A stretch of 34,310 bases of DNA, from IMG/VR virus record IMGVR_UViG_3300033892_000029; one strand, given 5' to 3'. Every line of letters starts with the position of its first letter. Position 1 is the first letter of the stretch. The translations under genes were made by a program, and so were the position numbers. Shown piece by piece: positions 1 through 34,310 of the stretch. The stretch comes from a virus. The notes under the pieces are model-generated. The model searched no databases. It was not told the origin of the DNA and saw only the letters and a list, made by a program, of their open reading frames with translations.

Positions 1-127
1 TCGACATTTTCCGCTCGGATGACTTCGCGAGGGTCAAGATGCTCACGATCTTCAATCCAGTGCGCCGGCACGCGCACGCCATGCCAGTGGTAAAGCGACC
101 AACCGTCGCGCCAGCGATGCGAGGGTC
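1..127. repeat. Terminal direct repeat, left copy (identical to 34184-34310); most likely the overlap left by circular assembly
   Basis: Read directly: bases 1-127 (tcgacattttccgctcgg...ccagcgatgcgagggtc) recur exactly as the last 127 bases. A minus-strand reading frame runs straight through the repeat. Confidence 0.95.
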
Positions 128-1316
128 CCGCTTCACTGTGAGGGCGGTTTTGCTCGTCCACTTTCAGGATCTCTGGGAAATCGCACACCATGCAGAATTC
201 CTCGTGCGTCCACCGGAATCCTCCGTGGATGGCAGCCTGCTCCCAGGACGCATAAGCCTCATGAGGCGGCAAGCGCAGCCCGAGAATGTCTCTGGCCGCC
301 GAAAGATAGCAATCCCAAGCGGCCCACATGTTGCCGCCTTGGCAGGGGTTCGCCCAGCGCGAAATGCACTGGCACATGAGAGGGGCGAGTTCAGGGCCGC
401 CAAGTTCAACGGCTAAAGGATAGACCCAAGCATAGGCGACCGTGGCGTCGTACGTGGCGGCGCGCGTGGCGGCGCGCGTGGCGGCGCGCGTGGCGGCGCG
501 CGTGGCGGCGATCGTGGCGGCGATCGTGGCGGCGTTCGTGGCGGCGATCGTGGCGTCGCGCGTGGCGGCGCGCGTGGCGGCGCGCGTGGCGGCGATCGTG
601 GCGGCGATCGTGGCGGCGATCGTGGCGGCGTTCGTGGCGGCGATCGTGGCGGCGTCCGTGGCGGCGTTCGTGGCGGCGTCCGTGGCGTCGCGCGTGGCGG
701 CGATCGTGGCGTCGCGCGTGGCGGCGATCGTGGCGTCGCGCGTGGCGTCGCGCGTGGCGGCGATCGTGGCGGCGATCGTGGCGGCGTTCGTGTCGGCGAT
801 CGTGGCGGCGATCGTGGCGGCGATCGTGGCGGCGCGCGTGGCGGCGTCCGTGGCGGCGTCCGTGGCGTCGTACGTGGCGTCGCGCGTGGCGGCGTACGTG
901 GCGTCGTCCGTGGCGGCGTCCGTGGCGGCGTCCGTGGCGGCGGCCGTGGCGGCGGCCGTGGCGGCGGCCGTGGCGGCGGCCGTGGCGGCGTCCGTGGCGG
1001 CGGCCGTGGCGGCGTCCGTGGCGGCGCGCGAAGGGGGCGCCTGTGGGTGCTTGCGCGCATGCCAAATGGCTGCGGCAAAGCCGCCGGCTATCGCCATGAC
1101 CAAGGGACTGGGTACGATAACGACACGCGGTTCTTTCAGTTTGGCCGCGCGATACATGCCGTGGATCGCGGACGTGATCTTGTCCGGTTCGATGGGATCG
1201 GTGCGGAAGGCACGCGCCGTCCATTGTTTGACGTGCTCGGCCATCGCGGCGCGCTCGGCCTCCGTCAGGCCACCGCCGGCGAAATCGGGACGACGGATGA
1301 TCTTTTCCTGCTTCAT
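1..1316 (-). CDS. N-terminal 1316 nt of a gene that wraps across the window ends: DUF6745-like protein with an internal 49-unit X-A-A-T repeat. It continues at 34183 and stops at 33883 (538 aa on the circle).
   Basis: Absent from the ORF track because the frame runs off the left edge. Hand translation, in the frame of ORF 33883..34260, finds ATG at 1316 with AAGGGGAG at 1325-1332. The product reads MKQEKIIRRPDFAGGGLTEAERAAMAEHVKQWTARAFRTDPIEPDKITSAIHGMYRAAKLKEPRVVIVPSPLVMAIAGGFAAAIWHARKHPQAPPS-(XAAT)x49-VAYAWVYPLAVELGGPELAPLMCQCISRWANPCQGGNMWAAWDCYLSAARDILGL... There is no stop between 1316 and 1. The DUF6745 assignment is from memory of that family's pattern and is unverified. Confidence 0.8.
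   Translation of the reverse strand, partial: MKQEKIIRRPDFAGGGLTEAERAAMAEHVKQWTARAFRTDPIEPDKITSAIHGMYRAAKLKEPRVVIVPSPLVMAIAGGFAAAIWHARKHPQAPPSRAATDAATAAATDAATAAATAAATAAATAAATDAATDAATDDATYAATRDATYDATDAATDAATRAATIAATIAATIADTNAATIAATIAATRDATRDATIAATRDATIAATRDATDAATNAATDAATIAATNAATIAATIAATIAATRAATRAATRDATIAATNAATIAATIAATRAATRAATRAATRAATYDATVAYAWVYPLAVELGGPELAPLMCQCISRWANPCQGGNMWAAWDCYLSAARDILGLRLPPHEAYASWEQAAIHGGFRWTHEEFCMVCDFPEILKVDEQNRPHSEAGPSHRWRDGWSLYHWHGVRVPAHWIEDREHLDPREVIRAENV
442..1029. repeat. Perfect-period 12-bp tandem array, 49 units, plus-strand consensus GTGGCG(G/T)CGNNC
   Basis: Counted from the sequence and from the VAxx periodicity of plus ORF 442..1344. Variation is confined to unit position 7 (G/T) and positions 10-11 (CG, AT, TT, TC, TA, GC), with one unit reading GTGTCGGCGATC. 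All three minus frames and one plus frame stay open across the array. Confidence 0.97.
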
Positions 1317-1350
1317 GCTGGGTACTCCCCTTGGTGGTGGATAAAGGATG

Positions 1351-1629
1351 TCAGGCAATGCGCTGGACGCGAACACAGGGAGCGCCATCTTCGGCGCGCA
1401 CCATGCGCTGGACGCGGTACGTATGGCCCAGGCGCCGCGCTTGTTGGCTTGCGCGTACACGCACGGCATGATCCAGTTCGCGCGGCACATCGAAGTAATG
1501 ACCGATGTCCATGGCGCGAAACGGGTACTTCTCGCGCGGCTCTTCGGGCGGCACCGGCTTCTTGTGCAACGTGAAGAAGGGAGCGGATGCGCGAGGGCGC
1601 TTGCGGGCGTTGACAGGTATGTTTTTCAT
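1351..1629 (-). CDS. Hypothetical small protein (92 aa)
   Basis: ORF track. Protein-like composition (MKNIPVNARKRPRASAPFFTLHKKPVPPEEPREKYPFRAMDIGHYFDVPRELDHAV...). Its start overlaps the upstream stop by 4 nt (1626-1629), so it sits in a tightly coupled operon. Confidence 0.7.
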   Translation of the reverse strand: MKNIPVNARKRPRASAPFFTLHKKPVPPEEPREKYPFRAMDIGHYFDVPRELDHAVRVRASQQARRLGHTYRVQRMVRAEDGAPCVRVQRIA

Positions 1630-1895
1630 GACAATGGATGATACCTTGATACATCGGGATAGTCAAGGGTGGAACGTTCATGACGCAAGCCGTACACCCA
1701 AGGCGCGCGGCCCTTGCCACGACGCACGTACGCCACGATCTGCACCACGTGTTGCGCCAGCAGCGTCCGCAGGGCTTTTTCGATGGCGCTCTCGCTGACG
1801 CCCACGCAAAGCGCCAAATCTCTTTTTGTCATTGGCTGCAGGCGCAGGACTTGCAGCAGGCGATGGCGCGCCGGTACGGGTGAGCGCGGGTTCAT
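1626..1895 (-). CDS. Putative winged-helix DNA-binding protein (89 aa)
   Basis: Internal ATG at 1895 within ORF 1626..1976, forming an ATGA overlap with the upstream small ORF. MNPRSPVPARHRLLQVLRLQPMTKRDLALCVGVSESAIEKALRTLLAQHVVQIVAYVRRGKGRAPWVY has a MarR/ArsR-like HTH-plus-wing pattern. The function is an inference. Confidence 0.6.
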   Translation of the reverse strand: MNPRSPVPARHRLLQVLRLQPMTKRDLALCVGVSESAIEKALRTLLAQHVVQIVAYVRRGKGRAPWVYGLRHERSTLDYPDVSRYHPLS

Positions 1896-2035
1896 GGCGC
1901 CATCGACAGGGCGGCAATGGCGCAGGCCAAGCCACCGATGGCGCCGACCATGAGCCCATAACCGAAGATGGCCCACAGGTCGCTGATAGCTACAAAGACC
2001 CGGCGGTTGAGGTAGTGCGAGAGGCGGCGGTTCAT
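1892..2035 (-). CDS. Small hydrophobic protein (47 aa)
   Basis: Hand translation (below the ORF-track size cut-off): MNRRLSHYLNRRVFVAISDLWAIFGYGLMVGAIGGLACAIAALSMAP. ATGA overlaps at both ends (2032-2035 and 1892-1895). One clear hydrophobic span and G/C-rich third codon positions. Confidence 0.55.
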   Translation of the reverse strand: MNRRLSHYLNRRVFVAISDLWAIFGYGLMVGAIGGLACAIAALSMAP

Positions 2036-2436
2036 GCGAGGCGCTCTTGGATTTGCTGGCGGCGGTATTCGGCGACCATCAGGTCGAGGAATTCCAGGGC
2101 GTGACGGGCGCGCAGCTGGGCGGTCGCCGCGACCACGACCGACTCCGGCGCCTGTACCGGTCCGTGCAGGGTATTCGGATAGACCTCGGCCAGGTCGAGT
2201 TGGTAGCCATCCGGCACGGCCTCCAAGAGCCGCTGGCGCAGACTGCGCGTGGCGCGCTGCTGTTGTTCCAGCGCTTCGCGCAGCGCCTCGATGTGCTGCT
2301 CCAGCGCCTGGATGCGCAGGCGCGCGGCGTCCAGCGTCGGCTGGGAGACGTCCTTGATCACCTGCACGCGTCCGGCCAGGGGCTGGAGCGAATCCAGCAC
2401 CTGGGCGATCAGCGGATCGACATGGGCGTTACTCAT
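2032..2436 (-). CDS. Hypothetical coiled-coil protein (134 aa)
   Basis: ORF track. Heptad-like Leu/Gln/Glu-rich middle (LDAARLRIQALEQHIEALREALEQQQRATRSLRQRLLEAV). Confidence 0.7.
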   Translation of the reverse strand: MSNAHVDPLIAQVLDSLQPLAGRVQVIKDVSQPTLDAARLRIQALEQHIEALREALEQQQRATRSLRQRLLEAVPDGYQLDLAEVYPNTLHGPVQAPESVVVAATAQLRARHALEFLDLMVAEYRRQQIQERLA

Positions 2437-2578
2437 GACCGACTCCGACAGTGAAGAGGTCGAGCAGGCGATGCCACCAGGGGCGGCGTGGGCGTGGGCG
2501 CGGTAGGCAGCAGCGCACGTGCTCGCGTGGGTTGCGATGATGGAAGGGATGGCGGTTGCGCAGGTCTTGGCGGTTCAT
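2429..2578 (-). CDS. Possible small His/Arg/Pro-rich protein (49 aa)
   Basis: Hand translation: MNRQDLRNRHPFHHRNPREHVRCCLPRPRPRRPWWHRLLDLFTVGVGHE. It fills the gap between neighbouring genes, overlaps the next start by 8 nt and has G/C-rich third positions. The composition is odd, so confidence is low. Confidence 0.35.
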   Translation of the reverse strand: MNRQDLRNRHPFHHRNPREHVRCCLPRPRPRRPWWHRLLDLFTVGVGHE

Positions 2579-2581
2579 CGC

Positions 2582-2830
2582 TCACGCCTCCCGCAACGGC
2601 TTGAACTCGGCGACCGCGGCCCAGTAGGCGTTGGGCATCTCGCCGCTACACACGACGGTGTAGCCGTGCTGGCGCAACCACACTTCCCCGATATCGAACG
2701 GGTTGGCGTAGTCGTAGTCATACGGGAGGATTACCGCATCCCGCTCGAAACGTTGCGACGTGAGCTTGACGCGCGCGCCGCGCGACATGGTTGGGCCAAG
2801 GAAAGCGATCTTGATCAGGTGAGCGTTCAT
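2582..2830 (-). CDS. Hypothetical protein (82 aa), first CDS of the leftward operon
   Basis: ATG at 2830 inside ORF 2582..2959, preceded by AAGGGG. MNAHLIKIAFLGPTMSRGARVKLTSQRFERDAVILPYDYDYANPFDIGEVWLRQHGYTVVCSGEMPNAYWAAVAEFKPLREA. The upstream part of the listed ORF is the tRNA-like element read as protein. Confidence 0.7.
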   Translation of the reverse strand: MNAHLIKIAFLGPTMSRGARVKLTSQRFERDAVILPYDYDYANPFDIGEVWLRQHGYTVVCSGEMPNAYWAAVAEFKPLREA

Positions 2831-2852
2831 GGGGTGCCCCTTGTGAGATGGA

Positions 2853-2923
2853 TGGCGCCGGGAGCGGGAGTCGAACCCGCTGTCAGAACCTATGTTCAGG
2901 TAGGACCGCCCTACTTCCCCGAC
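2853..2923 (-). tRNA. tRNA-like element (71 nt with encoded CCA) with a truncated anticodon arm; not an ordinary tRNA by my folding
   Basis: The minus strand reads GTCGGGG-AA-GTAG-GGCGGTC-CTAC-CTGAACATAGGTTCTGACA-GCGGG-TTCGACT-CCCGC-TCCCGGC-G-CCA. It has a 7-bp acceptor stem (two G-U pairs), a 4-bp D stem, a canonical T arm with TTCGAnT loop, a discriminator base and CCA. Only 19 nt lie between the D and T arms where about 22-23 are needed. The only pairing there is GAAC/GTTC around a 4-nt loop, so there is no 7-nt anticodon loop. Confidence 0.5.
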
Positions 2924-2931
2924 GTGTTGCC

Positions 2932-2959
2932 AATCTATCACGTCTGACACGTATGTCAA
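2932..2959 (-). promoter_or_regulatory. Sigma-70-type promoter for the leftward operon
   Basis: The minus strand reads TTGACA (2959-2954), a 16-nt spacer, then TAGATT (2937-2932). The predicted start is about 7 nt downstream, 1-2 nt before the 5' end of the tRNA-like element at 2923. Confidence 0.5.
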
Positions 2960-3075
2960 GCATTATTTCCCTTCCATCCGTGGCCTTTCCCCTTGTTTCG
3001 TCCATCGATTCAGCATTCGTTCACCCGATTGCCGCCAAGCGCTTCCTCTATTGCTCCATCCATGGCTTGAGCTAA

Positions 3076-3095
3076 GGATGAATCCTTTCTATGCA
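3076..3095. repeat. 20-bp direct repeat, copy A (GGATGAATCCTTTCTATGCA)
   Basis: 17/20 identical to 3301-3320. Each copy has a CCATGG close to its left side. Confidence 0.7.
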
Positions 3096-3300
3096 TGGAC
3101 CATCAATGACTTAGCAAGGTTACCGTGTGTGTGTAGCAGCAGTAGGGTAGTGAGTTCTAACACTGTAACTCCTGATCCATCTTCTTCCATATCATAGTTA
3201 AATCATCACTCGCATAAGCTGTAACATTTGACTAATCCATAGATATAGCTTAAGAAGCGACAGCGGCTGTAGCATGAGTTCAAGCACAGGATGTAGCCAT

Positions 3301-3320
3301 GGATGGATCTTTTCTGTGCA
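3301..3320. repeat. 20-bp direct repeat, copy B (GGATGGATCTTTTCTGTGCA)
   Basis: 17/20 identical to 3076-3095, 225 bp away. The two copies bracket the AT-rich island. Confidence 0.7.
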
Positions 3321-3592
3321 GGAGGACAGCTCAGGCGGGAAGAGGCTGGAACGCGCTGTGAGCGTCTGTGCGGCGTTTCCAGCGTGGGGTCGGTAGGGTG
3401 GTAGCGGCCCCCTCCCTGGCTGGCGCTCTGGATCGATCCTGATCGGTTCCAGCCCCCTCCGATCCCTCCCTTCCGACTCCCGACCCGGCGCTTTGGGCTT
3501 TTCGCTCGATCAACAGAGAGGCTCCACCCTCCCCCACCCCAGGAAAAAATTCGGTGGAGAGGGCTTAATCACCCTCCCCCTTTCTGGCACCC

Positions 3593-3632
3593 CCGTAGCT
3601 AACGAAGCTCCCCATAGGCGTCTTAGCTACGG
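3593..3632. promoter_or_regulatory. Inverted-repeat pair 1: CCGTAGCTAA-20 nt-TTAGCTACGG (candidate operator, pac-type site or RNA hairpin)
   Basis: Perfect 10-bp arms at 3593-3602 and 3623-3632 with an exact 20-nt spacer. The right arm extends as TTAGCTACGGACCCC. Confidence 0.6.
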
Positions 3633-3666
3633 ACCCCATGGGCGGGAACAGTGGGTCAAAAACCCT

Positions 3667-3706
3667 CCGTAGCCAACGGATACAAAAATGGACGGCTTAG
3701 CTACGG
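3667..3706. promoter_or_regulatory. Inverted-repeat pair 2: CCGTAGCCAA-20 nt-TTAGCTACGG
   Basis: Arms at 3667-3676 and 3697-3706 (one mismatch), again with an exact 20-nt spacer and the same TTAGCTACGGACCCC extension. Offset from pair 1 is 74 bp. Confidence 0.6.
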
Positions 3707-3813
3707 ACCCCTGGGATGGATCGGTGACCCGGAAATCCCACCCCTTATCGGGCCATGGCTGACGCAGTAAGCTTGACCTGCAGCCGGCCTGTTGCTGGCG
3801 CGGGAGAAGAAAC

Positions 3814-4032
3814 ATGGCACGCAGCAAGGTCGATCAGCCGGTGGTGCGTTTGAGCGTGGGGCAGATGACGCCGGGCAATGTGAAGGAGCGCACGTTCCAT
3901 CCGAACGGGGTGGACGGCTATACCGGTCCCAGCTACAGCAACCGGCGAGGCAACAGCAACGTCCAGGGCACGTCCAAGCCGGTGGCCCGGTTTGGGGTGG
4001 CGACGGGCAACCGCGGCGAGTGGAAGCGGTGA
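3814..4032 (+). CDS. Hypothetical protein (72 aa), first CDS of the rightward block
   Basis: ORF track. GGGAGA lies upstream of the ATG, third codon positions are strongly G/C, and the stop overlaps the next start (GTGA at 4029-4032). Confidence 0.7.
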   Translation: MARSKVDQPVVRLSVGQMTPGNVKERTFHPNGVDGYTGPSYSNRRGNSNVQGTSKPVARFGVATGNRGEWKR

Positions 4033-4289
4033 GCGCAAAGCCTGGCAAGGAAGCCAAGTCGGGGAATGTGAAACGCCTGTTGCTCCCGGTGGAGCGCTGC
4101 AACCAAGAGTGCGTCGCCAAGTTGGAGCAGCTTCTGGCCATGGCGAAGGCCGGGGAAATCGTCAGTGTTCACGGCATCGCCGAATCAGGTGGAACGTACT
4201 TCATCTACTCGACCCGGACGGCATCGCGCACCCAGACTGCGGGCGCGCTGCTGGACGCCGCCATCGAGCGGCTGAAGGACGACGAATGA
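4029..4289 (+). CDS. Hypothetical protein (86 aa)
   Basis: GTG at 4029 in the frame of ORF 3792..4289. VSAKPGKEAKSGNVKRLLLPVERCNQECVAKLEQLLAMAKAGEIVSVHGIAESGGTYFIYSTRTASRTQTAGALLDAAIERLKDDE. The upstream part of the listed ORF looks like an out-of-frame read of the previous gene. Confidence 0.6.
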   Translation: MSAKPGKEAKSGNVKRLLLPVERCNQECVAKLEQLLAMAKAGEIVSVHGIAESGGTYFIYSTRTASRTQTAGALLDAAIERLKDDE

Positions 4290-4615
4290 AAACCGCCGCC
4301 GGTATCCGCGCCTATATCCGCCGTTCCCGGGTGCCGATCGCCGACTGGGCGCGGGCGCTGGGCGTGCACTACACCTCGCTCTACCGCATGGTCTGCGGGG
4401 TGAGCGGGATGCAGGAGGGGCCCTTGATGCGGCGCGCCATGTGGATGGTGCAGGCGCTGGAGGAAGGGCAGGCCCGCTGGGAGCGCAGCACGCTGCCCGA
4501 CGGCCATGGCGCATGGCGCATCCAGGGCCTGGCCTTCACGCCGACCACGATGGTCACCTACCGGGCCAATTTCCTCGGCGGTACGTTCCAGCGCATCGAG
4601 GGCGTCGAAACGTGA
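4286..4615 (+). CDS. HTH-containing small protein (109 aa); small-terminase/DNA-recognition candidate by position
   Basis: ATG at 4286 (ATGA overlap) in the frame of ORF 3992..4615. MKTAAGIRAYIRRSRVPIADWARALGVHYTSLYRMVCGVSG has a helix-turn-helix pattern. It lies immediately upstream of, and is translationally coupled to, the large terminase (GTGA at 4612-4615). The role is inferred from synteny only. Confidence 0.55.
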   Translation: MKTAAGIRAYIRRSRVPIADWARALGVHYTSLYRMVCGVSGMQEGPLMRRAMWMVQALEEGQARWERSTLPDGHGAWRIQGLAFTPTTMVTYRANFLGGTFQRIEGVET

Positions 4616-6417
4616 AGTTCCCTCGCCAGCAGTTCGAGACGTTCTGCAGCCGCCTGGTGCTGAACTCCAAGGAGCAGGGCCGGGTGCCGTTCCGGTGGAA
4701 CGGGGCACAGGTGCGTTTCGTGGATGAAATGGAAAAGGGCTTAGGCCGCGAGCAGCACAAGATCGTCGTGTGCAAGGCCCGCCAGCTGGGCATCACCACG
4801 ATGACGCTGGCGCTGGACCTGTTCTGGCTGTTCCGCCATCCAGGTACGCAGGGGGCGCTGGCGGTCAGCAACGAGTCGGTCCGCGACCTGTCGCGCAACA
4901 TCCTGACCAACTACCTGGACGGGTTGCCCAACGGCATGAAGGTGCCGGTGAAGATCGACAACCGCACCGAGATCCGTTTCACCAACACCTCGCGTCTGGC
5001 CCACATGATCGCCGGCGGCCGCAACTCCGGCGCGCTGGCTCGCGGCCAGGGTCTCAACTACGCCCACATGACCGAGATGAGCAGTTGGGCGGACCCGGAG
5101 GGGGTGGTGTCGCTGGATGCCTCGCTCGCCGAAACGCACCCCAACCGCCTCTACATTGCCGAGTCCACCGCGCGCGGGTTCAACGTCTTCCACGACATGT
5201 GGGAGGACGCCGAGCGCTCGCTCTCGACCAACGCGATCTTCATCGGCTGGTGGGCGAAGGAGGACTATCGCATGCCGCGCACCTCGCGGCTGTGGGATAC
5301 CTATGGACGCGCCCGGCCCAGCCGCGACGAGCAGGCGTGGGCACGCGAGGTGAAGAAGCGCTACGGCCACGAGATCACCCCCGAGCAGTTCGCCTGGTGG
5401 CGCTGGAAGTGGGCCGAATCGGGCGAGAGCCGCCTCCTGGTCGCCGAGTATCCCTGGACCGCCGACCAGGCCTTCGTCATGACCGGCGACCAGTTCTTCG
5501 GCGCGCAGACGCTCAAGAAAATCAAGGAAGCCGCGTTGCAGGTGCCGCGGCAGTGCTGGCGCTACGTGATCGGCCCGCGCTTCGAGGACACGGCGTTGGA
5601 GCCCGATGAGGACGGTCCGCTGTCGATCTTCGAGGAGCCGCGTTCGGACGCCGAGTACGTGATCGCCGCCGATCCGGCCTACGGGGAGAGCGAGTGGGCC
5701 GATCACTTCTGCGCCCAGGTGCTGCGCTGCGAGCGCGACCGCGTGGTGCAGGTGGCGGAGTTCAACTCTCCCGATTGCACCATGTACGGCTTTGCCTGGA
5801 TTCTTGCCCACCTGGCCGGCGCCTATTCCTCGATCGCCAAGCCGGCCACCCTGATCATCGAGCTGGGCGGCCCGGGGCGGGGCGTGCTGCAGGAGCTGCA
5901 GCGCATGCCCGAGCAGTACGCCGACCGCATCGACTCGCTCAGCCCCAGCGCGCAGCGGGCGCTTCAGAACCTGTTCGGTTCGATCCGCCACTACCTGTAC
6001 CGTCGCCCCGACAGCCTCTCCGGCGGCCGGCTGCTGCAATGGGAGACGACCTGGAAGACCAAGCAGATCATGATGAACCTGTTGCGCGACGGCATCGAGC
6101 GCGGCATGGTCACGGTCAACAGCCCCGAATGGCCCGAGGAGGCGCGCTACGTCACCCAGAACGGCAGCCGCATCCAAGCCGAAGGCCAGCACAAGGACGA
6201 CCGCGTGGTGGCGATGGCGCTGGGCGTGGTGGCCTGGCAGCAGCAGGTGCTGCCCGAACTCCTGGCCGCCCATGCCGAAGCCGGCTACGGCCGCGGGCCG
6301 GCCGCGCCGCTGGATCGCGCGGTGCACAACTGGCTGGACGGCATCCGCTCGGGCGCCGAGGATGCGCTCTGGTCCACGCCTTCCTACGGCTACGCATCCT
6401 GGGACGAGTTGCAGTAG
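4612..6417 (+). CDS. terL: Terminase large subunit (601 aa)
   Basis: GTG at 4612 in the frame of ORF 4441..6417. Walker-A-like VVCKARQLGITT, then LAHMIAGG...GQGLNYAHMTEMSSW, ESTARG, and a C-terminal nuclease-type HKDDRVVAMALGVVAW. The gene sits upstream of the portal. Confidence 0.88.
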   Translation: MKFPRQQFETFCSRLVLNSKEQGRVPFRWNGAQVRFVDEMEKGLGREQHKIVVCKARQLGITTMTLALDLFWLFRHPGTQGALAVSNESVRDLSRNILTNYLDGLPNGMKVPVKIDNRTEIRFTNTSRLAHMIAGGRNSGALARGQGLNYAHMTEMSSWADPEGVVSLDASLAETHPNRLYIAESTARGFNVFHDMWEDAERSLSTNAIFIGWWAKEDYRMPRTSRLWDTYGRARPSRDEQAWAREVKKRYGHEITPEQFAWWRWKWAESGESRLLVAEYPWTADQAFVMTGDQFFGAQTLKKIKEAALQVPRQCWRYVIGPRFEDTALEPDEDGPLSIFEEPRSDAEYVIAADPAYGESEWADHFCAQVLRCERDRVVQVAEFNSPDCTMYGFAWILAHLAGAYSSIAKPATLIIELGGPGRGVLQELQRMPEQYADRIDSLSPSAQRALQNLFGSIRHYLYRRPDSLSGGRLLQWETTWKTKQIMMNLLRDGIERGMVTVNSPEWPEEARYVTQNGSRIQAEGQHKDDRVVAMALGVVAWQQQVLPELLAAHAEAGYGRGPAAPLDRAVHNWLDGIRSGAEDALWSTPSYGYASWDELQ

Positions 6418-6499
6418 CATCGCACGCAAAGCATGCTCTGAGCGTTGGCTTTACCAACGATCATCGCCGCATAGCCACCCTAAGACCGGAGGACTGTCC

Positions 6500-6727
6500 A
6501 TGAGCCGTCTGACCGCCGCGGAACGTCGCAAGCGCCCGGCGCGGGATTTCGCGGGGCCGGACAAGACCTTTCCGGACTACGACCGCAAGCACCAGCGCGC
6601 GGCGATCTCCGGTGCCTCGCGCGCCTACCATGCCGGCCACATCAGCAAGGCGACCGAGCAGCGCATCCAAGCCCGCGAGCGCCGCAAGCTGTCCTCCCGC
6701 TCCACCCGCAAAGGATCTTCCCGATGA
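6500..6727 (+). CDS. Small basic protein (75 aa)
   Basis: ATG at 6500 with GGAGGA at 6488-6493. MSRLTAAERRKRPARDFAGPDKTFPDYDRKHQRAAISGASRAYHAGHISKATEQRIQARERRKL... From memory it resembles the DUF6582-type small proteins; unverified. Confidence 0.6.
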   Translation: MSRLTAAERRKRPARDFAGPDKTFPDYDRKHQRAAISGASRAYHAGHISKATEQRIQARERRKLSSRSTRKGSSR

Positions 6728-6864
6728 TTACCGCCCTGTTCTGGATCTTGATCGCCCTCGTGGCGCTCGACGTCATTGCCCACCTTCAGCACATCACGGT
6801 CGTGGATGAGCTGAAAAAGGACCTGGCATGGATCAAGTCCAAGCTGGAGGGAGGCTCTTCGTGA
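6724..6864 (+). CDS. Small membrane protein (46 aa)
   Basis: Hand translation: MITALFWILIALVALDVIAHLQHITVVDELKKDLAWIKSKLEGGSS. ATGA overlaps at both ends and an N-terminal hydrophobic helix. Confidence 0.5.
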   Translation: MITALFWILIALVALDVIAHLQHITVVDELKKDLAWIKSKLEGGSS

Positions 6865-7388
6865 TGAAGCGCTGGCGCTGTCTCCACTGCTGGGCGCCGG
6901 AGGTGGCGGAGGCCGAGTGGGAAGACCATCTCACGCAGTCGTTCTGCCGCCTGTGCGGGAGCGCCGGCACGCGCATCTACGAATTCGGCTGCTTCGTGTG
7001 CGACGACCAGGGCGTGATCTTCTGGGGCGAGGAGGCGCCCAGCCACCCCTGTCCGGACTGCAACAGCCCGTCCTACCGCATCGTGCATGCGCCCTACGTC
7101 GCCAGCCCCGAGCGCCGTGCCGATTTCAAGGCCGCCGACCGACTGCTGGAGACCGAGTTGACGAACCAGAACCGCTCCCTCTCCACCTTCGAGCGCAACG
7201 CCAAGCCGGTGGACGAGCGCGTGGCGGCCGCGCGGGCGCAAGCACAAGCGAATGGCGGCCTGGCCGGCGGCTGGGTCGCGCCGGCGCAGGTGATCGGTCG
7301 TGCGATGCCAGGCAGTCAGGCGAACCCGCTGGGCACGATGCCGCGGCCCACGACGATCATCGCCGGCAAATACGACAAGGTGGACTAG
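6864..7388 (+). CDS. Double zinc-ribbon protein (174 aa) between terminase and portal
   Basis: ATG at 6864 in ORF 6828..7388. Four CxxC pairs: CLHC, CRLC, CFVC and CPDC. Confidence 0.65.
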   Translation: MKRWRCLHCWAPEVAEAEWEDHLTQSFCRLCGSAGTRIYEFGCFVCDDQGVIFWGEEAPSHPCPDCNSPSYRIVHAPYVASPERRADFKAADRLLETELTNQNRSLSTFERNAKPVDERVAAARAQAQANGGLAGGWVAPAQVIGRAMPGSQANPLGTMPRPTTIIAGKYDKVD

Positions 7389-7391
7389 CTC

Positions 7392-9065
7392 ATGCGCATC
7401 CCGAAGGCGCCGGCGGAACGGATCGACTGGCTGTACAGCACGCTCGCCCGCCTGCGTCGCTCGATGGACGACCGGCGCGCCAAGGCGCGCACGTGGCGCA
7501 GCTGGTACCTGCATGGCGCCCCGGAGTGGGGCGCGCGCTACAACATGATCTGCCCGCAGGTGAACACCCTGGCCGGCTACCTGTACGCGCCGCGCAGCGT
7601 GCGTTTCAGCCTCAACGCCGGGCCGGTGGCCAAGGCCGGCAAGATCGCCCTGTTCGAGACCGCCGCGGTGCGCCTGCGCACGCTGTGGAACGAGTCCTGC
7701 GCGGATGAGGCCTACAGCAACCAGACGCTCTGGAGCCTGGTCTATGGCTCGAGCTTCCTGAAGTTCCGCTGGGCCGAGGGCAAGCCGCGCTGCCTGCCGG
7801 TGGCGGCCTTTGACCTGGGCGTGTGGCGCGACGACCTGCCGGACCTGGAAGATCAACAGGCGATCCTGCACACCTATCGGCTGGATGGGGAGACCGTGCG
7901 CCTGTGGCTGGTCTCCGCCGGCATGCCCGGACCGGAGGTGGACGCGTGGATGCGCCGCTTGGGCAACGGCAACAGCGGCGAAAGCCCCAGCCGCGGCGCG
8001 GTTGCAGTGGGCCAGATGAACCCGATCGGGTGGTCCGGCGGCGTCTCGCAGGGCGTGGCCGGCGCGGTGACCGACTGGGGCAGCGTCAGTGCCGACTACG
8101 GCGGTGATTCGCCGACGCTGGAGATCGAGGAGATGTGGGTGCGCGACGATGCGACCCGCGACTGGCGCATCTTCCAGATCATCGAGAAGGACCTGATCCT
8201 GTCCGATCGGCCGAACGATTTCCTGCCCGAGCACCATCCGTTCGTCAAACTCACCCCGGACCCGGTGGATGAATGGTTCTGGGGCCGCTCGACGGTGGAG
8301 CAGCTGATTCCGCTGCAGGCCCTGCGCGAGAAGCGCATGAACCAGCTCGACCGCCTGTGCGCGCGCCAGGCCAACCCGCCGATGGTGGCCAGCGGCCTGA
8401 GCGGCGTGACCGACGAGAAGGCGGCGGCCGTGATGCGCCGCGGCGGCCTGCTGGGTTCCTCGCAGGTGCCCGGCGCCAAGATCGACCTGCTCACGCCGCA
8501 GGTCTCGGAAATCAGCTTCGCGCTGATCAACGACATCGACGCGATGTTTTCCAACACGCTTGGCCTCACCGACATGCTGCAGGGCCAATCCTCAGGCAAC
8601 GAGCGTGGCGGCGCGCACGCGCGGGCGATGATGGAAGCGGGCGCCAGCCGCCTGACGCGCCGGATGCAGAACGTGGAGCGCGCAGTGGCGGAAGGCGCCT
8701 CGCTGCTGATGGAGCTGGCCAAGCGCTACGACGACACGGTGCTGGTCGATGATGACGATCAGCGCTACCTCATGGCGCAGGTGCCGGAGGAAGCGATGGT
8801 GGAAGTGGCCGCGCATTCGGCCTCGCCGCTGTTCGCCACCCGCGCGCAGCAGGACGCCGCGCAGCTGATGGAGCTGGGCATCATCGACAAGACCGATTTC
8901 CTGGACCTGGCCGATCCGCCGATGTCCGAGGCGCTCAAGATGCGCATGAAGGCGCGCGACAAGCAGCACCAGAAGCAGGTCCAGCAGGCCATCCAGCAGA
9001 CCCCCGAGAACGACCGCTGGCAGCTGTTTACCAGCCTGCTGGGCCTCGGCAAGAAGCGCGCCTGA
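7392..9065 (+). CDS. Portal protein (557 aa)
   Basis: ORF track. The size, the position after the terminase and ahead of scaffold and capsid, and the acidic/basic helical C-terminus all fit. No search was run. Confidence 0.75.
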   Translation: MRIPKAPAERIDWLYSTLARLRRSMDDRRAKARTWRSWYLHGAPEWGARYNMICPQVNTLAGYLYAPRSVRFSLNAGPVAKAGKIALFETAAVRLRTLWNESCADEAYSNQTLWSLVYGSSFLKFRWAEGKPRCLPVAAFDLGVWRDDLPDLEDQQAILHTYRLDGETVRLWLVSAGMPGPEVDAWMRRLGNGNSGESPSRGAVAVGQMNPIGWSGGVSQGVAGAVTDWGSVSADYGGDSPTLEIEEMWVRDDATRDWRIFQIIEKDLILSDRPNDFLPEHHPFVKLTPDPVDEWFWGRSTVEQLIPLQALREKRMNQLDRLCARQANPPMVASGLSGVTDEKAAAVMRRGGLLGSSQVPGAKIDLLTPQVSEISFALINDIDAMFSNTLGLTDMLQGQSSGNERGGAHARAMMEAGASRLTRRMQNVERAVAEGASLLMELAKRYDDTVLVDDDDQRYLMAQVPEEAMVEVAAHSASPLFATRAQQDAAQLMELGIIDKTDFLDLADPPMSEALKMRMKARDKQHQKQVQQAIQQTPENDRWQLFTSLLGLGKKRA

Positions 9066-19136: not shown

Positions 19137-19394
19137 ATGTTCGCGTTCCTTTCACGCGGCATCGACTGGATGATGGCCGAGACGCCCAACCTGGAGCGTC
19201 TGTCCATCGCCTCCAGCGTGCCGGTGTATCTGGGGCTGGCGATCTTCCACACGCTGAAGACGCACGACTTCAATGGCGGCGACTTCGGCGCGGGCTTGGC
19301 CGCCCTGGTCGGCGGCATCTCGGGTGCGATCGGGCTCAATACGTGGGTGCGCTCGCGCCCGGGCGGCCGCGACAGGGACGGCCCGGGACCATGA
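19137..19394 (+). CDS. Membrane protein (85 aa), two hydrophobic segments; holin-class candidate
   Basis: ORF track. SVPVYLGLAIFHTL and GAGLAALVGGISGAIGL, followed by a charged C-terminus. Confidence 0.5.
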   Translation: MFAFLSRGIDWMMAETPNLERLSIASSVPVYLGLAIFHTLKTHDFNGGDFGAGLAALVGGISGAIGLNTWVRSRPGGRDRDGPGP

Positions 19395-19473
19395 TCGCTT
19401 GCCTCGCAAGCTCCCAGAGCAGCGGAGCTGCGATGATCGTTTGCTCGCAAACGCTCAGAGCAGGGGACCTGCG
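19391..19473 (+). repeat. Tandem duplication (42 + 41 nt, about 83% identical) of a unit starting ATGATCG; the third ATGATCG at 19474 starts the next gene
   Basis: Unit 1 is ATGATCGCTTGCCTCGCAAGCTCCCAGAGCAGCGGAGCTGCG. Unit 2 is ATGATCGTTTGCTCGCAAACGCTCAGAGCAGGGGACCTGCG. Each contains a short hairpin (GCTTGC-CTC-GCAAGC and GTTTGC-TC-GCAAAC). Confidence 0.8.
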
Positions 19474-19860
19474 ATGATCGCCCGGATCACCGGTCTGGCC
19501 TGCGCCCTGTACCGTCAGCGGATCAAGGCGCTGGCGACGGTGGCCTGTCTGCGCCTGCCCTACCGGTATGACCCGGAAGCGGTGTACCGGGACTGTCTCG
19601 CTGGCGTGCAGGAGCTGTGGACGGACGGGGTGACCTATTGCATCGTGGAAACGCTGGAGCGCACGGATGGGCGCTTCCTGTGGCTGGCCTTTGCCGCCGG
19701 TCGCCTGCGTGAGGCGCTGGCCTGCTATACGCAGGTGGAGGAGGCCGCGCGCGCCTTGGGGTATGATGCGATTGCATTTACCGGGCGCCGGGGCTGGTCG
19801 CAGGTGCTGCCGGGGTTCGTGCGCCATGACGATGACGGTTGGATCAAGAGGCTACACTGA
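19474..19860 (+). CDS. Hypothetical protein (128 aa)
   Basis: ATG at 19474 in the frame of ORF 19273..19860. MIARITGLACALYRQRIKALATVACLRLPYRYDPEAVYRDCLAGVQELWTDGVTYCIVETLERTDGRFLWLAFAAGR... Confidence 0.6.
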   Translation: MIARITGLACALYRQRIKALATVACLRLPYRYDPEAVYRDCLAGVQELWTDGVTYCIVETLERTDGRFLWLAFAAGRLREALACYTQVEEAARALGYDAIAFTGRRGWSQVLPGFVRHDDDGWIKRLH

Positions 19861-20417: not shown

Positions 20418-21014
20418 ATGACCACGACCACTACCACGACGCCCTTGGTTGCGGCCACGCCGACCGCCACACCGACGCCGACGCCGACGCCGACCTATCA
20501 GCCGGAGACCGCCACGCCCATCACCACGCGGGCGACCTCGACCGGGCCGATGCCGTCCAAGCAGGAAACGCTGCTGAACCAGATCGCCGGGCTGGCCTTG
20601 TCCTATAGCCAAGGCGTGGCGCCCGGACAGGTCAACGCCCAGCAGCAGCAGGTGTTGAGCGCGTGGCGCAACAATGCCGATTCCGACTACAGCCAGTTCA
20701 TGGCTAACCAGGGGCTGTCGATGGTGTCTTCCAACCCGGGCGTGCTGTTCAACGAGGAACTGGCCACGGCCCAGTCGCAGTGGTCGATGCAGGATGCGCA
20801 GGGCGCCCTGTCGATGCTGGGGCTGTCGGCCAAGGACTGGGACGAATACCAGAAGCTGAAGGAAGAAGACGAGCAGCGTCACGACAACTTCCTGTTCGGC
20901 GCGGTCGAGACCGTGGCGGGCGCGGCACTGACCTTCTTCTCCGCCGGCACCCTGAGTGCCGCGGGCGTGCCCCTGATGGCGCAGGGCGTCGGCGCGATGG
21001 CCGGCAATTCCTGA
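20418..21014 (+). CDS. Internal virion-type protein candidate (198 aa) with a Thr/Pro-rich N-terminus and hydrophobic C-terminus
   Basis: ORF track. MTTTTTTTPLVAATPTATPTPTPTPTYQPE... at the start and ...FGAVETVAGAALTFFSAGTLSAAGVPLMAQGVGAMAG at the end. Confidence 0.6.
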   Translation: MTTTTTTTPLVAATPTATPTPTPTPTYQPETATPITTRATSTGPMPSKQETLLNQIAGLALSYSQGVAPGQVNAQQQQVLSAWRNNADSDYSQFMANQGLSMVSSNPGVLFNEELATAQSQWSMQDAQGALSMLGLSAKDWDEYQKLKEEDEQRHDNFLFGAVETVAGAALTFFSAGTLSAAGVPLMAQGVGAMAGNS

Positions 21015-21018
21015 GGAT

Positions 21019-33485: not shown

Positions 33486-33836
33486 TCAGTCCTGCACCAG
33501 GCGCGCTTGCTCCAGGAACGGGTTGTACTCGCGGCTGATGCGGAACTCGTAGATACCCGCCGGCAACTCAAAATGCTCGTGCGGTACGGGCGCATCCTGC
33601 TCCAGCAGGCAGTCCGCCGACAGGCACGCATAGATGATGCGCATGCCATCGGGCACCGCATCCGTGCGCTCCATGACCTCGGCGCCCTCGCCCGCAAGCA
33701 CATGGTGATGGCCGCTTTCGGAGTGGCTGATGATGGCGCCGTGCGCATTGCGCTCGACCGGTTTGTGCTGCATGGCGGGCAGCGTATCAATGCGGATGAT
33801 GGTGATTTCGCCTTGGGCTCCGACAATCTGTTTCAT
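33486..33836 (-). CDS. Hypothetical beta-rich protein (116 aa)
   Basis: ATG at 33836 with AGGAGA upstream, in the frame of ORF 33486..34016. MKQIVGAQGEITIIRIDTLPAMQHKPVERNAHGAIISHSESGHHHVLAGEGAEVMERTD... Confidence 0.65.
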   Translation of the reverse strand: MKQIVGAQGEITIIRIDTLPAMQHKPVERNAHGAIISHSESGHHHVLAGEGAEVMERTDAVPDGMRIIYACLSADCLLEQDAPVPHEHFELPAGIYEFRISREYNPFLEQARLVQD

Positions 33837-33882: not shown

Positions 33883-34310
33883 TTAGGTACGGCGCGGCGG
33901 ATGGATGTATTCGGCCTGCGGATCGCCGATGCGCCACGCCTGCGCGGCGAGGGCCGTGTCGATGGGAAGGTTGTCGATATCGGAAACGCGCGGCACCCCT
34001 TCCACGATCGTGCCATTGCGCGGGCATTCGGCTTTAAGGAAGCGGCCCGGTTCAGCCAATCCCGGGAGATCCAGCTCGATGAGTTGGCCGATGGTCGGCG
34101 AGCCGCTATCGTGGATCACGCGCGCTTTGAGCACTTGCAACATCTTCGGCCACCCGACAATAGCAGCCCCGGCGGCGCGCTGTTCGACATTTTCCGCTCG
34201 GATGACTTCGCGAGGGTCAAGATGCTCACGATCTTCAATCCAGTGCGCCGGCACGCGCACGCCATGCCAGTGGTAAAGCGACCAACCGTCGCGCCAGCGA
34301 TGCGAGGGTC
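33883..34310 (-). CDS. C-terminal part of the wrap-around DUF6745-like gene (see 1..1316); 34184-34310 duplicates 1-127
   Basis: ORF 33883..34260 is listed with an internal GTG, but the frame stays open to the window end and continues at base 128 on the circle. ...SHRWRDGWSLYHWHGVRVPAHWIEDREHLDPREVIRAENVEQRAAGAAIVGWPKMLQVLKARVIHDSGSPTIGQLIELDLPG... Confidence 0.8.
   Translation of the reverse strand, partial: PSHRWRDGWSLYHWHGVRVPAHWIEDREHLDPREVIRAENVEQRAAGAAIVGWPKMLQVLKARVIHDSGSPTIGQLIELDLPGLAEPGRFLKAECPRNGTIVEGVPRVSDIDNLPIDTALAAQAWRIGDPQAEYIHPPRRT
34184..34310. repeat. Terminal direct repeat, right copy (identical to 1-127)
   Basis: Exact 127-nt identity read by eye. Confidence 0.95.

What the first reader, a model, noticed from the sequence alone, without database searches (positions are those of the whole stretch)
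442..1029. 49 tandem copies of a 12-bp unit encoding an (R/I/N/D/Y/A)-(A/D)-A-T tetrapeptide repeat
- The array keeps a perfect 12-nt period for 588 nt.
- Differences between units are restricted to one G/T position and two adjacent positions (plus strand GTGGCG[G/T]CG[NN]C).
- In the real (minus) frame this varies only the first residue (codons CGC, ATC, AAC, GAC, TAC, GCC, all of form NNC) and sometimes the second (GCC or GAC).
- The result is RAAT/IAAT/DAAT/NAAT/YDAT/AAAT blocks arranged in runs.
- Such a long, in-frame, position-restricted minisatellite is rare in a phage. It should be highly prone to slippage or unequal recombination, giving copy-number and composition variants as in a contingency locus.
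- The Ala-Ala-Thr core recalls Ala/Thr-rich antifreeze-type or O-glycosylated linkers, but that comparison is only an analogy.
- Short-read assembly of this array is also intrinsically unreliable.
Basis: partly seen in the sequence, partly recalled or inferred. Interest (0 to 1): 0.85.

Follow-up and report, generated by a model that had tools for sequence, protein, structure and literature searches.

The report
Hypervariable tetrapeptide-repeat array in phage gene
The 49 tandem 12-base repeats are real and encode a fast-changing four-residue repeat in the middle of an early phage protein; the only studied parallel lets a mycobacteriophage retune itself against a bacterial defence, and here the design marks a large uncharacterised phage protein family.

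Summary
There are 49 gap-free 12-bp units at 441-1028, coding on the minus strand.

The window is a complete circular 34,183-bp phage genome. The gene wraps across its ends and encodes 538 aa: a ~96-aa N-domain, 49 X1-X2-A-T units, then a DUF6745 domain.

The array is not an assembly artefact. All k-mers of 77 or longer are unique, and an independent assembly gives an identical gene.

It is polymorphic. Another population of the same phage has 34 units, through a 180-bp in-frame deletion between 31-bp direct repeats.

Such arrays are a hallmark of the family (flavours xxAT, xxQL, xxQV, xxNL, xxSV, xSSL). Variation is confined to nt 1, 2 and 5 of the unit. Synonymous sites are frozen within arrays but differ between arrays.

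A 116-aa partner gene is conserved immediately downstream.

The closest known case is mycobacteriophage Tweety gp54, a counter-defence protein tuned by repeat number. Its flanking domains are not homologous to this protein.

The function here is inferred: a tunable host-interaction or counter-defence protein. The antifreeze/glycosylation analogy, a diversity-generating retroelement (DGR) and an iteron role are not supported.

The parts
441..1028 (-). Tandem array: 49 units of 12 bp, encoding residues 98-293, X1-X2-A-T (X1 = R/I/D/A/N/Y; X2 = A/D; one unit is IADT)
   Evidence: TRF; unit table; pattern search 48 matches vs 0.01 expected
1029..1316 (-). 5' part of the gene. Start ATG at 1316-1314. 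Encodes the conserved N-terminal domain (aa 1-96).
   Evidence: Translation. N-termini of homologues align (MK..I.R.PDFAGGGIT..E). AF2 pLDDT is 83-96 over the first 90 residues. The N-domain matches that of the Mycobacterium prophage homologue (hhalign 94%).
1325..1332 (-). Shine-Dalgarno-like AAGGGGAG, 8 nt upstream of the ATG
   Evidence: Read directly from the sequence; inference
1..440 (-). First part of the C-terminal DUF6745 domain (aa 294-439); the gene runs off the window start
   Evidence: Pfam PF20530, 43.4 bits vs cutoff 27
33883..34183 (-). Last 99 codons and stop codon of the same gene, joined across the circular junction
   Evidence: Circular reconstruction gives one 538-aa ORF. 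The same gene is contiguous and 538 aa long in other assemblies.
34184..34310 (.). 127-bp terminal overlap identical to 1-127. It marks a circular contig of 34,183 bp.
   Evidence: Script; sequence
537..716 (-). 15 units (180 bp) missing in the 34-unit variant from assembly ERZ27247211. Placement is ambiguous by 31 bp (equally 568-747), because identical 31-bp direct repeats lie at 537-567 and 717-747.
   Evidence: the rest of the gene on both sides of the deletion is 100% identical at nucleotide level
33486..33836 (-). Conserved 116-aa partner gene immediately downstream. All-beta protein with no known family.
   Evidence: tblastn finds it just downstream of the DUF6745 gene in 24 of 34 fetched loci. 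759 homologues. AF2 pLDDT 83.7. No Pfam or PHROG match and no PDB fold match.
1638..1666 (-). Sigma-70-like promoter match (TTGACT-17-TATCAT) upstream of the 92-aa gene and the repeat gene
   Evidence: Consensus scan only; not evidence of function

Best explanation
SHOWN:
- The array is the central part of a real early-region phage gene on the minus strand. It encodes 538 aa and wraps across the ends of the circular contig.
- The protein belongs to the DUF6745 family. It has a conserved N-domain, 49 tetrapeptides X1-X2-Ala-Thr, and a conserved C-domain.
- Arrays of this design are a hallmark of the family.
- They change by in-frame gain or loss of whole units through recombination or slippage between direct repeats.
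- They also change by amino-acid-altering substitutions confined to the first two codons of the unit. Synonymous sites stay identical within an array.

INFERRED:
- The array is a variable-length spacer or arm with a variable surface. AlphaFold models it as helical, but only with moderate confidence.
- It sets the geometry and/or contact surface between the two conserved domains.
- Copy-number and X1/X2 changes retune the protein's interaction with a host target. The target is most likely a component of an anti-phage defence.
- The protein probably works together with the conserved 116-aa partner.
- This is the mechanism proposed for mycobacteriophage Tweety gp54, where escape mutants against a prophage (p)ppGpp-synthetase-type defence differ only in repeat number.

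The confidence value refers to the inferred function. The structural and evolutionary description is about 0.9.
For: Coding and architecture:
- Pfam DUF6745 scores above its cutoff.
- More than 1000 homologues were found, and the 33 full-length proteins read directly among the best 120 hits all show the same N-domain, array and C-domain layout.
- Both flanking domains are conserved as far as a Mycobacterium abscessus prophage protein that carries about 46 xxQL units.

Reality of the array:
- All k-mers of 77 or longer are unique.
- The gene is nucleotide-identical in assembly ERZ27247219, and a 538-aa gene is called in JGI 3300059473.

Tunability:
- A 34-unit variant of the same phage differs only by a 180-bp deletion between 31-bp direct repeats.
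- L002 and L003 differ by a 72-bp insertion, while the 3 kb downstream is 99.97% identical.
- Homologues with C-domains 81-85% identical carry only 4 to about 14 units. In the 54 aligned homologues the range is 0-25 units.

Selection on the peptide:
- Over 21 homogeneous arrays, the extra alleles per unit position are [44 18 5 8 22 5 1 1 1 4 1 1].
- Ala and Thr codons differ between arrays: GCC/GCA/GCT/GCG and ACG/ACC/ACA.
- A strict period-4 pattern of T/I/V/L/M persists in decayed arrays, with autocorrelation +0.3 to +0.5 at lags 4, 8 and 12.

Context:
- In prophages the gene sits among the first genes after the cI/Cro-type switch, next to recombination or replication genes.
- In one prophage an Acb2/Tad1-hairpin anti-defence gene lies two genes downstream.

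Precedent:
- Tweety gp54 is described in PMC2884959 and PMC9262239.
- Its array shows the same nucleotide pattern of variation.
Against: - Tweety gp54's flanking domains are not homologous to this protein (hhalign probability 0.3%; no Pfam match). The functional transfer is therefore by analogy only.
- Nothing identifies the biochemical activity of either domain or of the partner. There is no PDB sequence hit, no Foldseek PDB hit and no PADLOC or NCBIfam hit.
- Some family members have no array: Microcystis phage LMM01 gp174, and P0269 and P0273. The array is therefore dispensable for the core fold.
- The helical model has only moderate confidence (10-residue block mean pLDDT 41-87). An exact period of 4.0 is not what an amphipathic alpha-helix gives.
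- The Acb2/Tad1 neighbour was seen in only one of five contexts examined.
Confidence: 0.4

Rival explanations
1. Neutral expansion in a tolerant linker. The 12-bp repeat behaves as a self-propagating minisatellite in an inter-domain linker that tolerates almost any length. The array has no adaptive role.
For: Array length ranges from 0 to more than 68 units in the family. Some members have an ordinary non-repeat linker. Arrays decay into degenerate sequence in some lineages.
Against: The same four-position design (variable, semi-variable, small/polar, beta-branched or Leu) recurs in at least six sequence flavours and across phyla. Variation is almost exclusively non-synonymous and position-specific in 21 arrays. 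Period 4 is kept after DNA-level decay. In Tweety, repeat number changes phenotype (PMC9262239).
Confidence: 0.22
2. Defence or superinfection-exclusion sensor rather than counter-defence. The DUF6745 protein and its 116-aa partner form a two-gene phage or prophage module that senses competing phages, and the hypervariable array acts as the recognition surface.
For: It is a conserved two-gene module. In prophages it lies close to the immunity region. X1 is dominated by D, R and Y, residues typical of binding surfaces (the link to binding surfaces is from general knowledge).
Against: No PADLOC model matches. No integrase was found in the searched parts of the window phage: the Pfam lists cover most of the genome and PHROGs covers selected other ORFs. 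It therefore looks virulent, which fits counter-defence better. The gene lies in operons that look lytic-early, not next to the repressor on the lysogenic strand.
Confidence: 0.12
3. DNA-level element. The 12-bp units would be protein-binding iterons (an origin inside a gene, as in lambda O) or a recombination or packaging signal, and the peptide would be a by-product.
For: The array is highly regular, and third-codon positions are invariant within each array. No replication genes were recognised among the window ORFs searched.
Against: Between arrays the DNA differs while the peptide pattern is kept, through synonymous codon differences and six flavours all in the same frame. There are 49 copies at a 12-bp spacing and no adjacent AT-rich stretch (GC 0.72), unlike known iteron origins. 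Related prophages encode separate DnaA_C-type initiators elsewhere. The variable bases are exactly the amino-acid-changing ones.
Confidence: 0.05
4. Targeted hypermutation by a diversity-generating retroelement or a similar system. The NNC codons would reflect adenine-directed mutagenesis of an AAC-rich template.
For: The variable codons have the form NNC and GNC, as in DGR variable regions. An A allele is present at each of the three strongly variable sites.
Against: No reverse transcriptase appears among the called genes, by Pfam lists for most of the genome or by PHROGs for selected other ORFs. No second copy of the unit exists anywhere in the genome that could serve as a template. The A in ACG (and in CAG in other flavours) never varies. 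The array is 588 bp long and lies in the middle of the gene, not at the 3' end.
Confidence: 0.02
5. Assembly artefact. The array length or unit order would be an invention of short-read assembly.
For: The contig shows a short-read assembler signature (127-bp terminal overlap). Several assemblies of the same phage break inside the array.
Against: No k-mer of 77 or longer is repeated, and the longest internal exact repeat is 62 bp. The gene is nucleotide-identical in an independent k141 assembly, and a 538-aa gene is called in a JGI assembly. Four partial contigs show the same unit order.
Confidence: 0.02
6. Antifreeze-like or O-glycosylated Ala/Thr linker.
For: There is one Thr per unit and the sequence is Ala-rich.
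Against: The period is 4, not the AAT tripeptide of fish antifreeze glycoproteins (general knowledge). Sister arrays replace A-T with Q-L, Q-V, N-L, S-V or S-S-L, so Thr is not required in the family. The protein looks cytoplasmic and early, and no signal peptide was seen by eye.
Confidence: 0.02

Closest known systems
Mycobacteriophage Tweety gp54 (with Che8 gp57 and PMC gp51): a tetrapeptide-repeat protein and tunable counter-defence against Phrann gp29/gp30
   Same: It has a central array of 12-bp units (48, 26 and 15 copies in the three phages) between unique N- and C-terminal regions. Two residues of each unit are fixed (Ala-Ala) and two vary. Variation lies at first and second codon positions, with third positions invariant (PMC2884959; recomputed). 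It is an early-region gene. Copy number differs between relatives, and defence-escape mutants differ in copy number (PMC9262239).
   Different: Its flanking domains are not homologous to this protein (hhalign 0.3%), and it has no DUF6745 domain. The unit is [G/W/Q][S/Y]AA rather than X-[A/D]-A-T. No homologue of the 116-aa partner was detected in the fetched Tweety region. Function has been tested for gp54 only.
DUF6745 (PF20530) proteins, e.g. M. abscessus prophage prophiGD102-1 gp38 and Microcystis phage Ma-LMM01 gp174
   Same: The C-domain is homologous and so is the N-domain. gp38 carries about 46 [W/R/G][D/G]QL units in the same position.
   Different: The repeat flavour differs. LMM01 gp174 has no array at all. 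The family is uncharacterised, and no paper in the searchable library mentions DUF6745.
Bordetella phage BPP-1/BMP-1 Bbp36 'variable region 2'
   Same: It is an in-frame Ala/Thr/Gly-rich tandem array with a 24-bp (8-aa) unit GTATAG[YR/ES/EK]. Copy number is 9-20 between isolates (PMC2884959). The gene lies in the early operon between the repressor and the exonuclease/SSB genes.
   Different: The unit is an octapeptide. The gene was not found by tblastn with the DUF6745 domain. Its function is unknown.
DGR variable proteins (e.g. BPP-1 Mtd)
   Same: Hypervariability is focused on NNC-type codons in a phage protein.
   Different: There is no RT, no template repeat and no adenine specificity, and the structure is a tandem array rather than a single variable region.
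Bacterial contingency loci and parasite repeat antigens, e.g. Plasmodium CSP (NANP)n (from general knowledge)
   Same: They are in-frame short tandem repeats whose copy number changes by slippage or recombination. They sit in genes involved in host-parasite conflict.
   Different: Here changes keep the frame, so this is tuning rather than on/off phase variation. The protein is an intracellular phage protein, not a surface antigen.

Membership tests
DUF6745 (Pfam PF20530) protein family | Match to the Pfam model above the gathering score | tested here: met
   43.4 bits (truncated protein) and 53.4 bits (C-domain) against a cutoff of 27
DUF6745 (Pfam PF20530) protein family | Full-length homology (N-domain plus C-domain) to other members | tested here: met
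   More than 1000 hits, best 79-88% identical. Alignment A1 has 42 invariant columns. hhalign to Mycobacterium gp38 gives 98.9% for the C-domain and 94.4% for the N-domain.
Tweety gp54-type tetrapeptide-repeat proteins | Central array of 12-bp / 4-residue units with two fixed and two variable residues | tested here: met
   49 units of X1-X2-A-T
Tweety gp54-type tetrapeptide-repeat proteins | Variation at first and second codon positions, with third positions invariant within the array | tested here: met
   Alleles per position are 4 4 1 1 2 1 1 2 1 1 1 1 for the window and 3 3 1 2 2 2 1 1 1 1 1 1 for gp54
Tweety gp54-type tetrapeptide-repeat proteins | Repeat number differs between closely related phages | tested here: met
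   49 vs 34 units in the same phage; 0-25 units in close homologues
Tweety gp54-type tetrapeptide-repeat proteins | Sequence homology of the N- and C-terminal regions to gp54 | tested here: not met
   hhalign probability 0.3%, E 0.19. The window protein is therefore not filed as a gp54 family member, only as working like one.
Tweety gp54-type tetrapeptide-repeat proteins | Counter-defence activity that is tuned by repeat number | not testable with these tools
   Needs plaque assays on hosts carrying defence systems. The only contextual hint is an Acb2/Tad1-hairpin gene two genes away in one prophage.
Diversity-generating retroelement target | Reverse transcriptase and a near-identical template repeat nearby | tested here: not met
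   No RT appears in the Pfam or PHROG results. The unit pattern occurs only in the array.
Diversity-generating retroelement target | Substitutions only at template adenines | tested here: not met
   The A of ACG never varies, and one C>A change occurs in codon 3
Lambda-type origin iterons inside an initiator gene | A few (about 4-6) 18-20-bp iterons next to an AT-rich region | tested here: not met
   49 units of 12 bp, with flanks of about 70% GC
Antifreeze glycoprotein-like (Ala-Ala-Thr)n | Tripeptide period AAT | tested here: not met
   The period is 4 residues, and family members replace A-T with Q-L, Q-V, N-L or S-V
Pentapeptide-repeat proteins | 5-residue period A(D/N)LXX; Pfam Pentapeptide models | tested here: not met
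   Period 4; no Pfam pentapeptide hit

The most novel reading that the evidence does not exclude
DUF6745 proteins and their 116-aa partners are a widespread phage 'contingency' system, previously unrecognised and found from Actinobacteria to Proteobacteria. About 4,800 protein clusters at 50% identity match the C-domain. In this reading, an in-frame tetrapeptide array works as a rapidly re-programmable ruler and recognition surface: copy number changes through recombination, and two hypervariable residues per unit change through selection. Phage populations could then retune an early protein against diverse host immune systems. This would generalise the single Tweety gp54 case into a common strategy that arose in unrelated protein scaffolds.
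Probability: 0.25. Interest if true: 0.75.

Novelty: new variant of a known kind. Interest (0 to 1): 0.58.

Why it matters
Only one tetrapeptide-repeat phage protein, Tweety gp54, has been tied to a phenotype. It remains a curiosity of mycobacteriophages.

This window shows the same array design in an unrelated scaffold:
- the same 12-bp unit;
- two fixed and two hypervariable residues;
- frozen synonymous sites;
- copy-number polymorphism.

The scaffold is a large uncharacterised family. phmmer finds 4,819 cluster representatives at E<=1e-3. It comes with a conserved partner gene and sits in early operons of phages of Alphaproteobacteria, Actinobacteria and other hosts.

If the arrays tune counter-defence, they would be a general and easily recognised marker of phage genes engaged in arms races. 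They would also be a natural example of evolvability built into a gene.

The natural 49-unit and 34-unit variants give a concrete experiment.

Tried and rejected
Searches that found nothing:
- Megablast of 1030-9000 against INPHARED phages: no match.
- tblastn of the C-domain against the same collection: only 4 records.
- NCBIfam, PADLOC and PDB sequence search: no hits.
- Foldseek of the full model against PDB: nothing below E=1. Against BFVD only two hits reached E<=0.01: the DUF6745 protein of phage LMM01 and an uncharacterised fragment from an uncultured phage.
- Partner protein model against PDB: nothing significant.
- PHROGs and Pfam on neighbouring early genes: mostly unknown function. 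They gave an exonuclease, a weak Rz-like spanin match and weak winged-helix matches.
- Exact DNA scans with both array flanks: no match in viral contigs with the C-side flank, and none in metagenome contigs with either flank.
- Cluster look-up of the 538-aa and 478-aa proteins: not in the collection.
- Rfam and tRNA scans of the window: nothing.
- Literature: no paper mentions DUF6745, and nothing was found on tetrapeptide-repeat counter-defence beyond Tweety.

- Dedrick et al. 2017 (PMC5508108) is not held. Its content is cited through the review PMC9262239.

Readings considered and rejected, for the reasons given under the rival explanations: DGR target, iterons/origin, assembly artefact, antifreeze or glycosylated linker, pentapeptide-repeat fold.

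AlphaFold's helical model of the array was not taken at face value. Its 10-residue block mean pLDDT is 41-87, and a strict 4.0 periodicity does not fit an ordinary amphipathic helix.
Full report
**1. The observation**

Tandem Repeats Finder reports one dominant array at 441-1026:
- period 12;
- 48.8 copies;
- 89% matches;
- no indels;
- score 668.

Cutting 441-1028 into 12-mers gives 49 units of 10 distinct sequences, and the next 12-mer is unrelated. A two-unit pattern matches 48 times, all inside the array, against 0.01 expected from shuffles.

In the coding orientation the unit is NNC-G[C/A]C-GCC-ACG.
- Codon 1 is CGC, ATC, GAC, GCC, AAC or TAC.
- Codon 2 is GCC or GAC.
- One unit (789-800) has GAC in codon 3 (IADT).
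- All four third-codon positions are invariant.

**2. The gene**

The last 127 bases of the window repeat the first 127, so the contig is a circular genome of 34,183 bp.

The array lies in a minus-strand gene.
- It starts at the ATG at 1316, preceded by AAGGGGAG.
- It runs through position 1 and continues from 34183 to a stop at 33883.
- It encodes 538 aa.

Open frames are no guide here, because several frames are open through the array. Homology fixes the frame.
- The C-terminal 245 aa match Pfam DUF6745 above the gathering score.
- Both flanks align with more than 1000 proteins.

The phage is tailed. It has a terminase, an SU10-type portal, a major head protein and a tail fibre. No integrase and no reverse transcriptase appear among the genes searched.

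The repeat gene lies in the leftward early region, behind small winged-helix regulators. A sigma-70-like site lies upstream.

**3. Is the array real?**

The longest exact internal repeat is 62 bp, and every k-mer of 77 or longer is unique. Reads of 150 bp can therefore resolve it.

The same phage was recovered from other assemblies through exact look-ups of the two neighbouring proteins.
- In ERZ27247219 the gene is nucleotide-identical, with 49 units.
- JGI 3300059473 also calls a 538-aa product.
- Four further contigs start inside the array and show the same unit order.

**4. Polymorphism**

In ERZ27247211 the gene has 478 aa (34 units). Outside the deleted segment the rest of the gene is 100% identical at nucleotide level.

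The difference is a 180-bp in-frame deletion (window 537-716, or equally 568-747). It is bounded by identical 31-bp direct repeats. This is the footprint of recombination or slippage between units.

One contig (L044) begins exactly at that junction. This suggests both alleles coexist in that sample.

Other comparisons point the same way.
- L002 and L003 differ by a 72-bp insertion in the array, while the 3 kb downstream is 99.97% identical.
- Homologues whose C-domains are 81-85% identical have only 4 to about 14 units.
- Across the 54 aligned homologues the range is 0-25 units, so 49 is the maximum in that set.

**5. A family hallmark**

Related loci from viral and bacterial contigs show the same architecture with different repeat flavours:
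- xxAT;
- [W/G/R][D/A/G]QV;
- [W/G/R][D/G]QL;
- [G/W/R/K][D/A/E]NL;
- [G/R/W][A/E]SV;
- [R/W/G/E]SSL.

A Mycobacterium abscessus prophage protein (prophiGD102-1 gp38) has about 46 xxQL units. Both its C-domain and its N-domain are homologous to the window protein.

Some members have decayed arrays several hundred residues long, and some have none.

phmmer against 1.84 billion cluster representatives finds 4,819 proteins at E<=1e-3 and 1,631 at E<=1e-10.

**6. The pattern of variation**

I counted extra alleles per unit position over 21 homogeneous arrays, rotated so the variable codons come first. The counts are [44 18 5 8 22 5 1 1 1 4 1 1].

Variation is therefore concentrated at nt 1, 2 and 5, which are amino-acid-changing positions. 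Synonymous positions hardly vary within an array.

Between arrays, the fixed residues use different codons: Ala GCC/GCA/GCT/GCG and Thr ACG/ACC/ACA. So the peptide is what is conserved, not the DNA word.

Decayed arrays keep an exact period-4 pattern of T/I/V/L/M, with autocorrelation +0.3 to +0.5 at lags 4, 8 and 12.

Together this indicates two processes: concerted evolution of units, and selection for diversity at X1 and X2. Pham et al. drew the same conclusion for Tweety gp54 (PMC2884959).

In the xxAT subfamily X1 is mostly D, R or Y, and X2 is mostly A, S, N or D.

**7. Structure**

The AlphaFold2 prediction used a 55-sequence alignment.
- The N-domain is modelled with confidence (10-residue block means 83-96).
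- The DUF6745 domain is also modelled with confidence (block means mostly 80-97).
- The array is modelled as four long helices at moderate to low confidence (block means 41-87).

I treat the helical model as tentative. An exact 4.0 periodicity is not what an amphipathic alpha-helix produces.

Neither the full model nor the partner model has a significant match in the PDB. In the viral library only two hits reach E<=0.01: the DUF6745 protein of Microcystis phage LMM01 and an uncharacterised fragment.

**8. Partner and context**

A 116-aa all-beta protein (33486-33836, minus strand) is encoded immediately downstream.
- Homologues occupy the same position in 24 of the 34 fetched loci.
- It has 759 homologues, all unannotated.

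In prophages the pair sits among the first genes after a cI/Cro-type switch, next to recombination or replication genes. In one prophage an Acb2/Tad1-hairpin anti-defence gene lies two genes downstream.

This is the usual place for early host-takeover and anti-defence genes. The evidence is circumstantial.

**9. What is known**

Mycobacteriophage Tweety gp54 has 48 units of a 12-bp repeat encoding AA[G/W/Q][S/Y]. Third-codon positions are invariant, and Che8 and PMC carry 26 and 15 copies (PMC2884959).

Defence-escape mutants that overcome the Phrann gp29/gp30 (p)ppGpp-synthetase-type system differ in repeat number. The authors propose that the spacing of the terminal domains tunes the protein (PMC9262239).

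I retrieved gp54.
- Its array shows the same nucleotide pattern.
- Its flanks are not homologous to the window protein.
- It has no Pfam domain.

BPP-1 Bbp36 'VR2' is an octapeptide analogue in a similar early position.

No paper in the library mentions DUF6745.

**10. Interpretation**

Shown: a real, coding, recombination-prone array under peptide-level constraint, with diversification at two residues per unit. It is a hallmark of a large phage protein family, and it is polymorphic in nature.

Inferred: it acts as a tunable spacer or surface in an early host-interaction protein, most likely counter-defence. This rests on analogy with gp54 and on gene context. I put this at about 0.4.

The main rival is neutral expansion in a tolerant linker (about 0.22). 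A defence or exclusion sensor comes next (about 0.12).

Four readings are disfavoured by specific tests, given under the rival explanations and the membership tests:
- a DNA-level iteron role;
- DGR mutagenesis;
- an assembly artefact;
- the antifreeze or glycosylation analogy.

**11. Verdict**

This is a new variant of a known kind. It works like Tweety gp54 but is not a member of that family. It extends a one-off curiosity to a large uncharacterised family with a conserved partner gene. Interest is moderate to high (0.58).

Noticed in passing
window 1-127 and 34184-34310: The two ends of the window are identical over 127 bp. The window is a complete circular contig of 34,183 bp, probably from an assembler run at k=127. 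The gene under study is split across the ends.
   Followed up: yes
window 33486-33836 (-): A 116-aa all-beta protein with invariant H38/S39/H44/H45 (SHSESGHHH motif) is a near-obligate downstream partner of DUF6745 genes. It has no known family or fold match.
   Followed up: partly
L048:11641-11856 (prophage in a 5-Mb genome, ERZ25072999): An Acb2/Tad1-hairpin (PF24729) anti-defence gene lies two genes downstream of the DUF6745 gene and its partner. A faint Fic match, a DNA methylase and an integrase lie further along.
   Followed up: no
L051:12777-13706 (Bordetella phage BPP-1 bbp36): The gene has 14 tandem octapeptides GTATAG[YR/ES/EK] ('VR2'), between the repressor and the exonuclease genes. 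This is an analogous repeat protein in an analogous position, in the classic DGR phage.
   Followed up: partly
L028 (Sphingobium jiangsuense), L001 (IMG/VR UViG 2651869794), L033 (M. abscessus prophage): Arrays as long as or longer than the window's occur elsewhere: at least 68 xxQL units (L028, interrupted by N-runs), about 54 xAAT units (L001) and about 46 xxQL units (L033).
   Followed up: partly
P0244, P0306, P0333 (875-980 aa): These are DUF6745 proteins with inter-domain regions of 500-650 aa. They look like decayed tetrapeptide arrays and still show period-4 autocorrelation.
   Followed up: partly
L008-L012, L015, L017: A second subfamily differs from the window protein after the WHG..VP motif (e.g. 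...MVERYG.ARYL..., not ...KAECPRNG...) and lacks the downstream 116-aa partner. The exception is L010, where a weak partner-like hit (E 5e-5) lies upstream of the gene instead.
   Followed up: no
window 22226-27595 (+): A 1,789-aa ORF follows the tail genes, with only a weak PHROG match of unknown function. It is probably an internal virion or ejection protein.
   Followed up: no
window 20418-21110 (+): Thr/Pro-rich low-complexity stretches (TTTTTTTP..., TPTPTPTP...) lie at the N-termini of two adjacent ORFs. TRF reports a 6-bp and a 24-bp repeat here.
   Followed up: no
window 3000-3800: This is the lowest-GC stretch of the genome (about 57%), with few convincing ORFs. It lies between the leftward early genes and the rightward packaging genes and is probably a divergent regulatory region.
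   Followed up: no
window 19391-19481: A 41-bp direct repeat of 2.2 copies (84% matches), in or next to small ORFs.
   Followed up: no
L035-L039 (contigs carrying fragment P0043): Five short assemblies of the same phage all begin about 180-230 bp downstream of the array, inside the C-domain, rather than in the array. The reason is not known.
   Followed up: no
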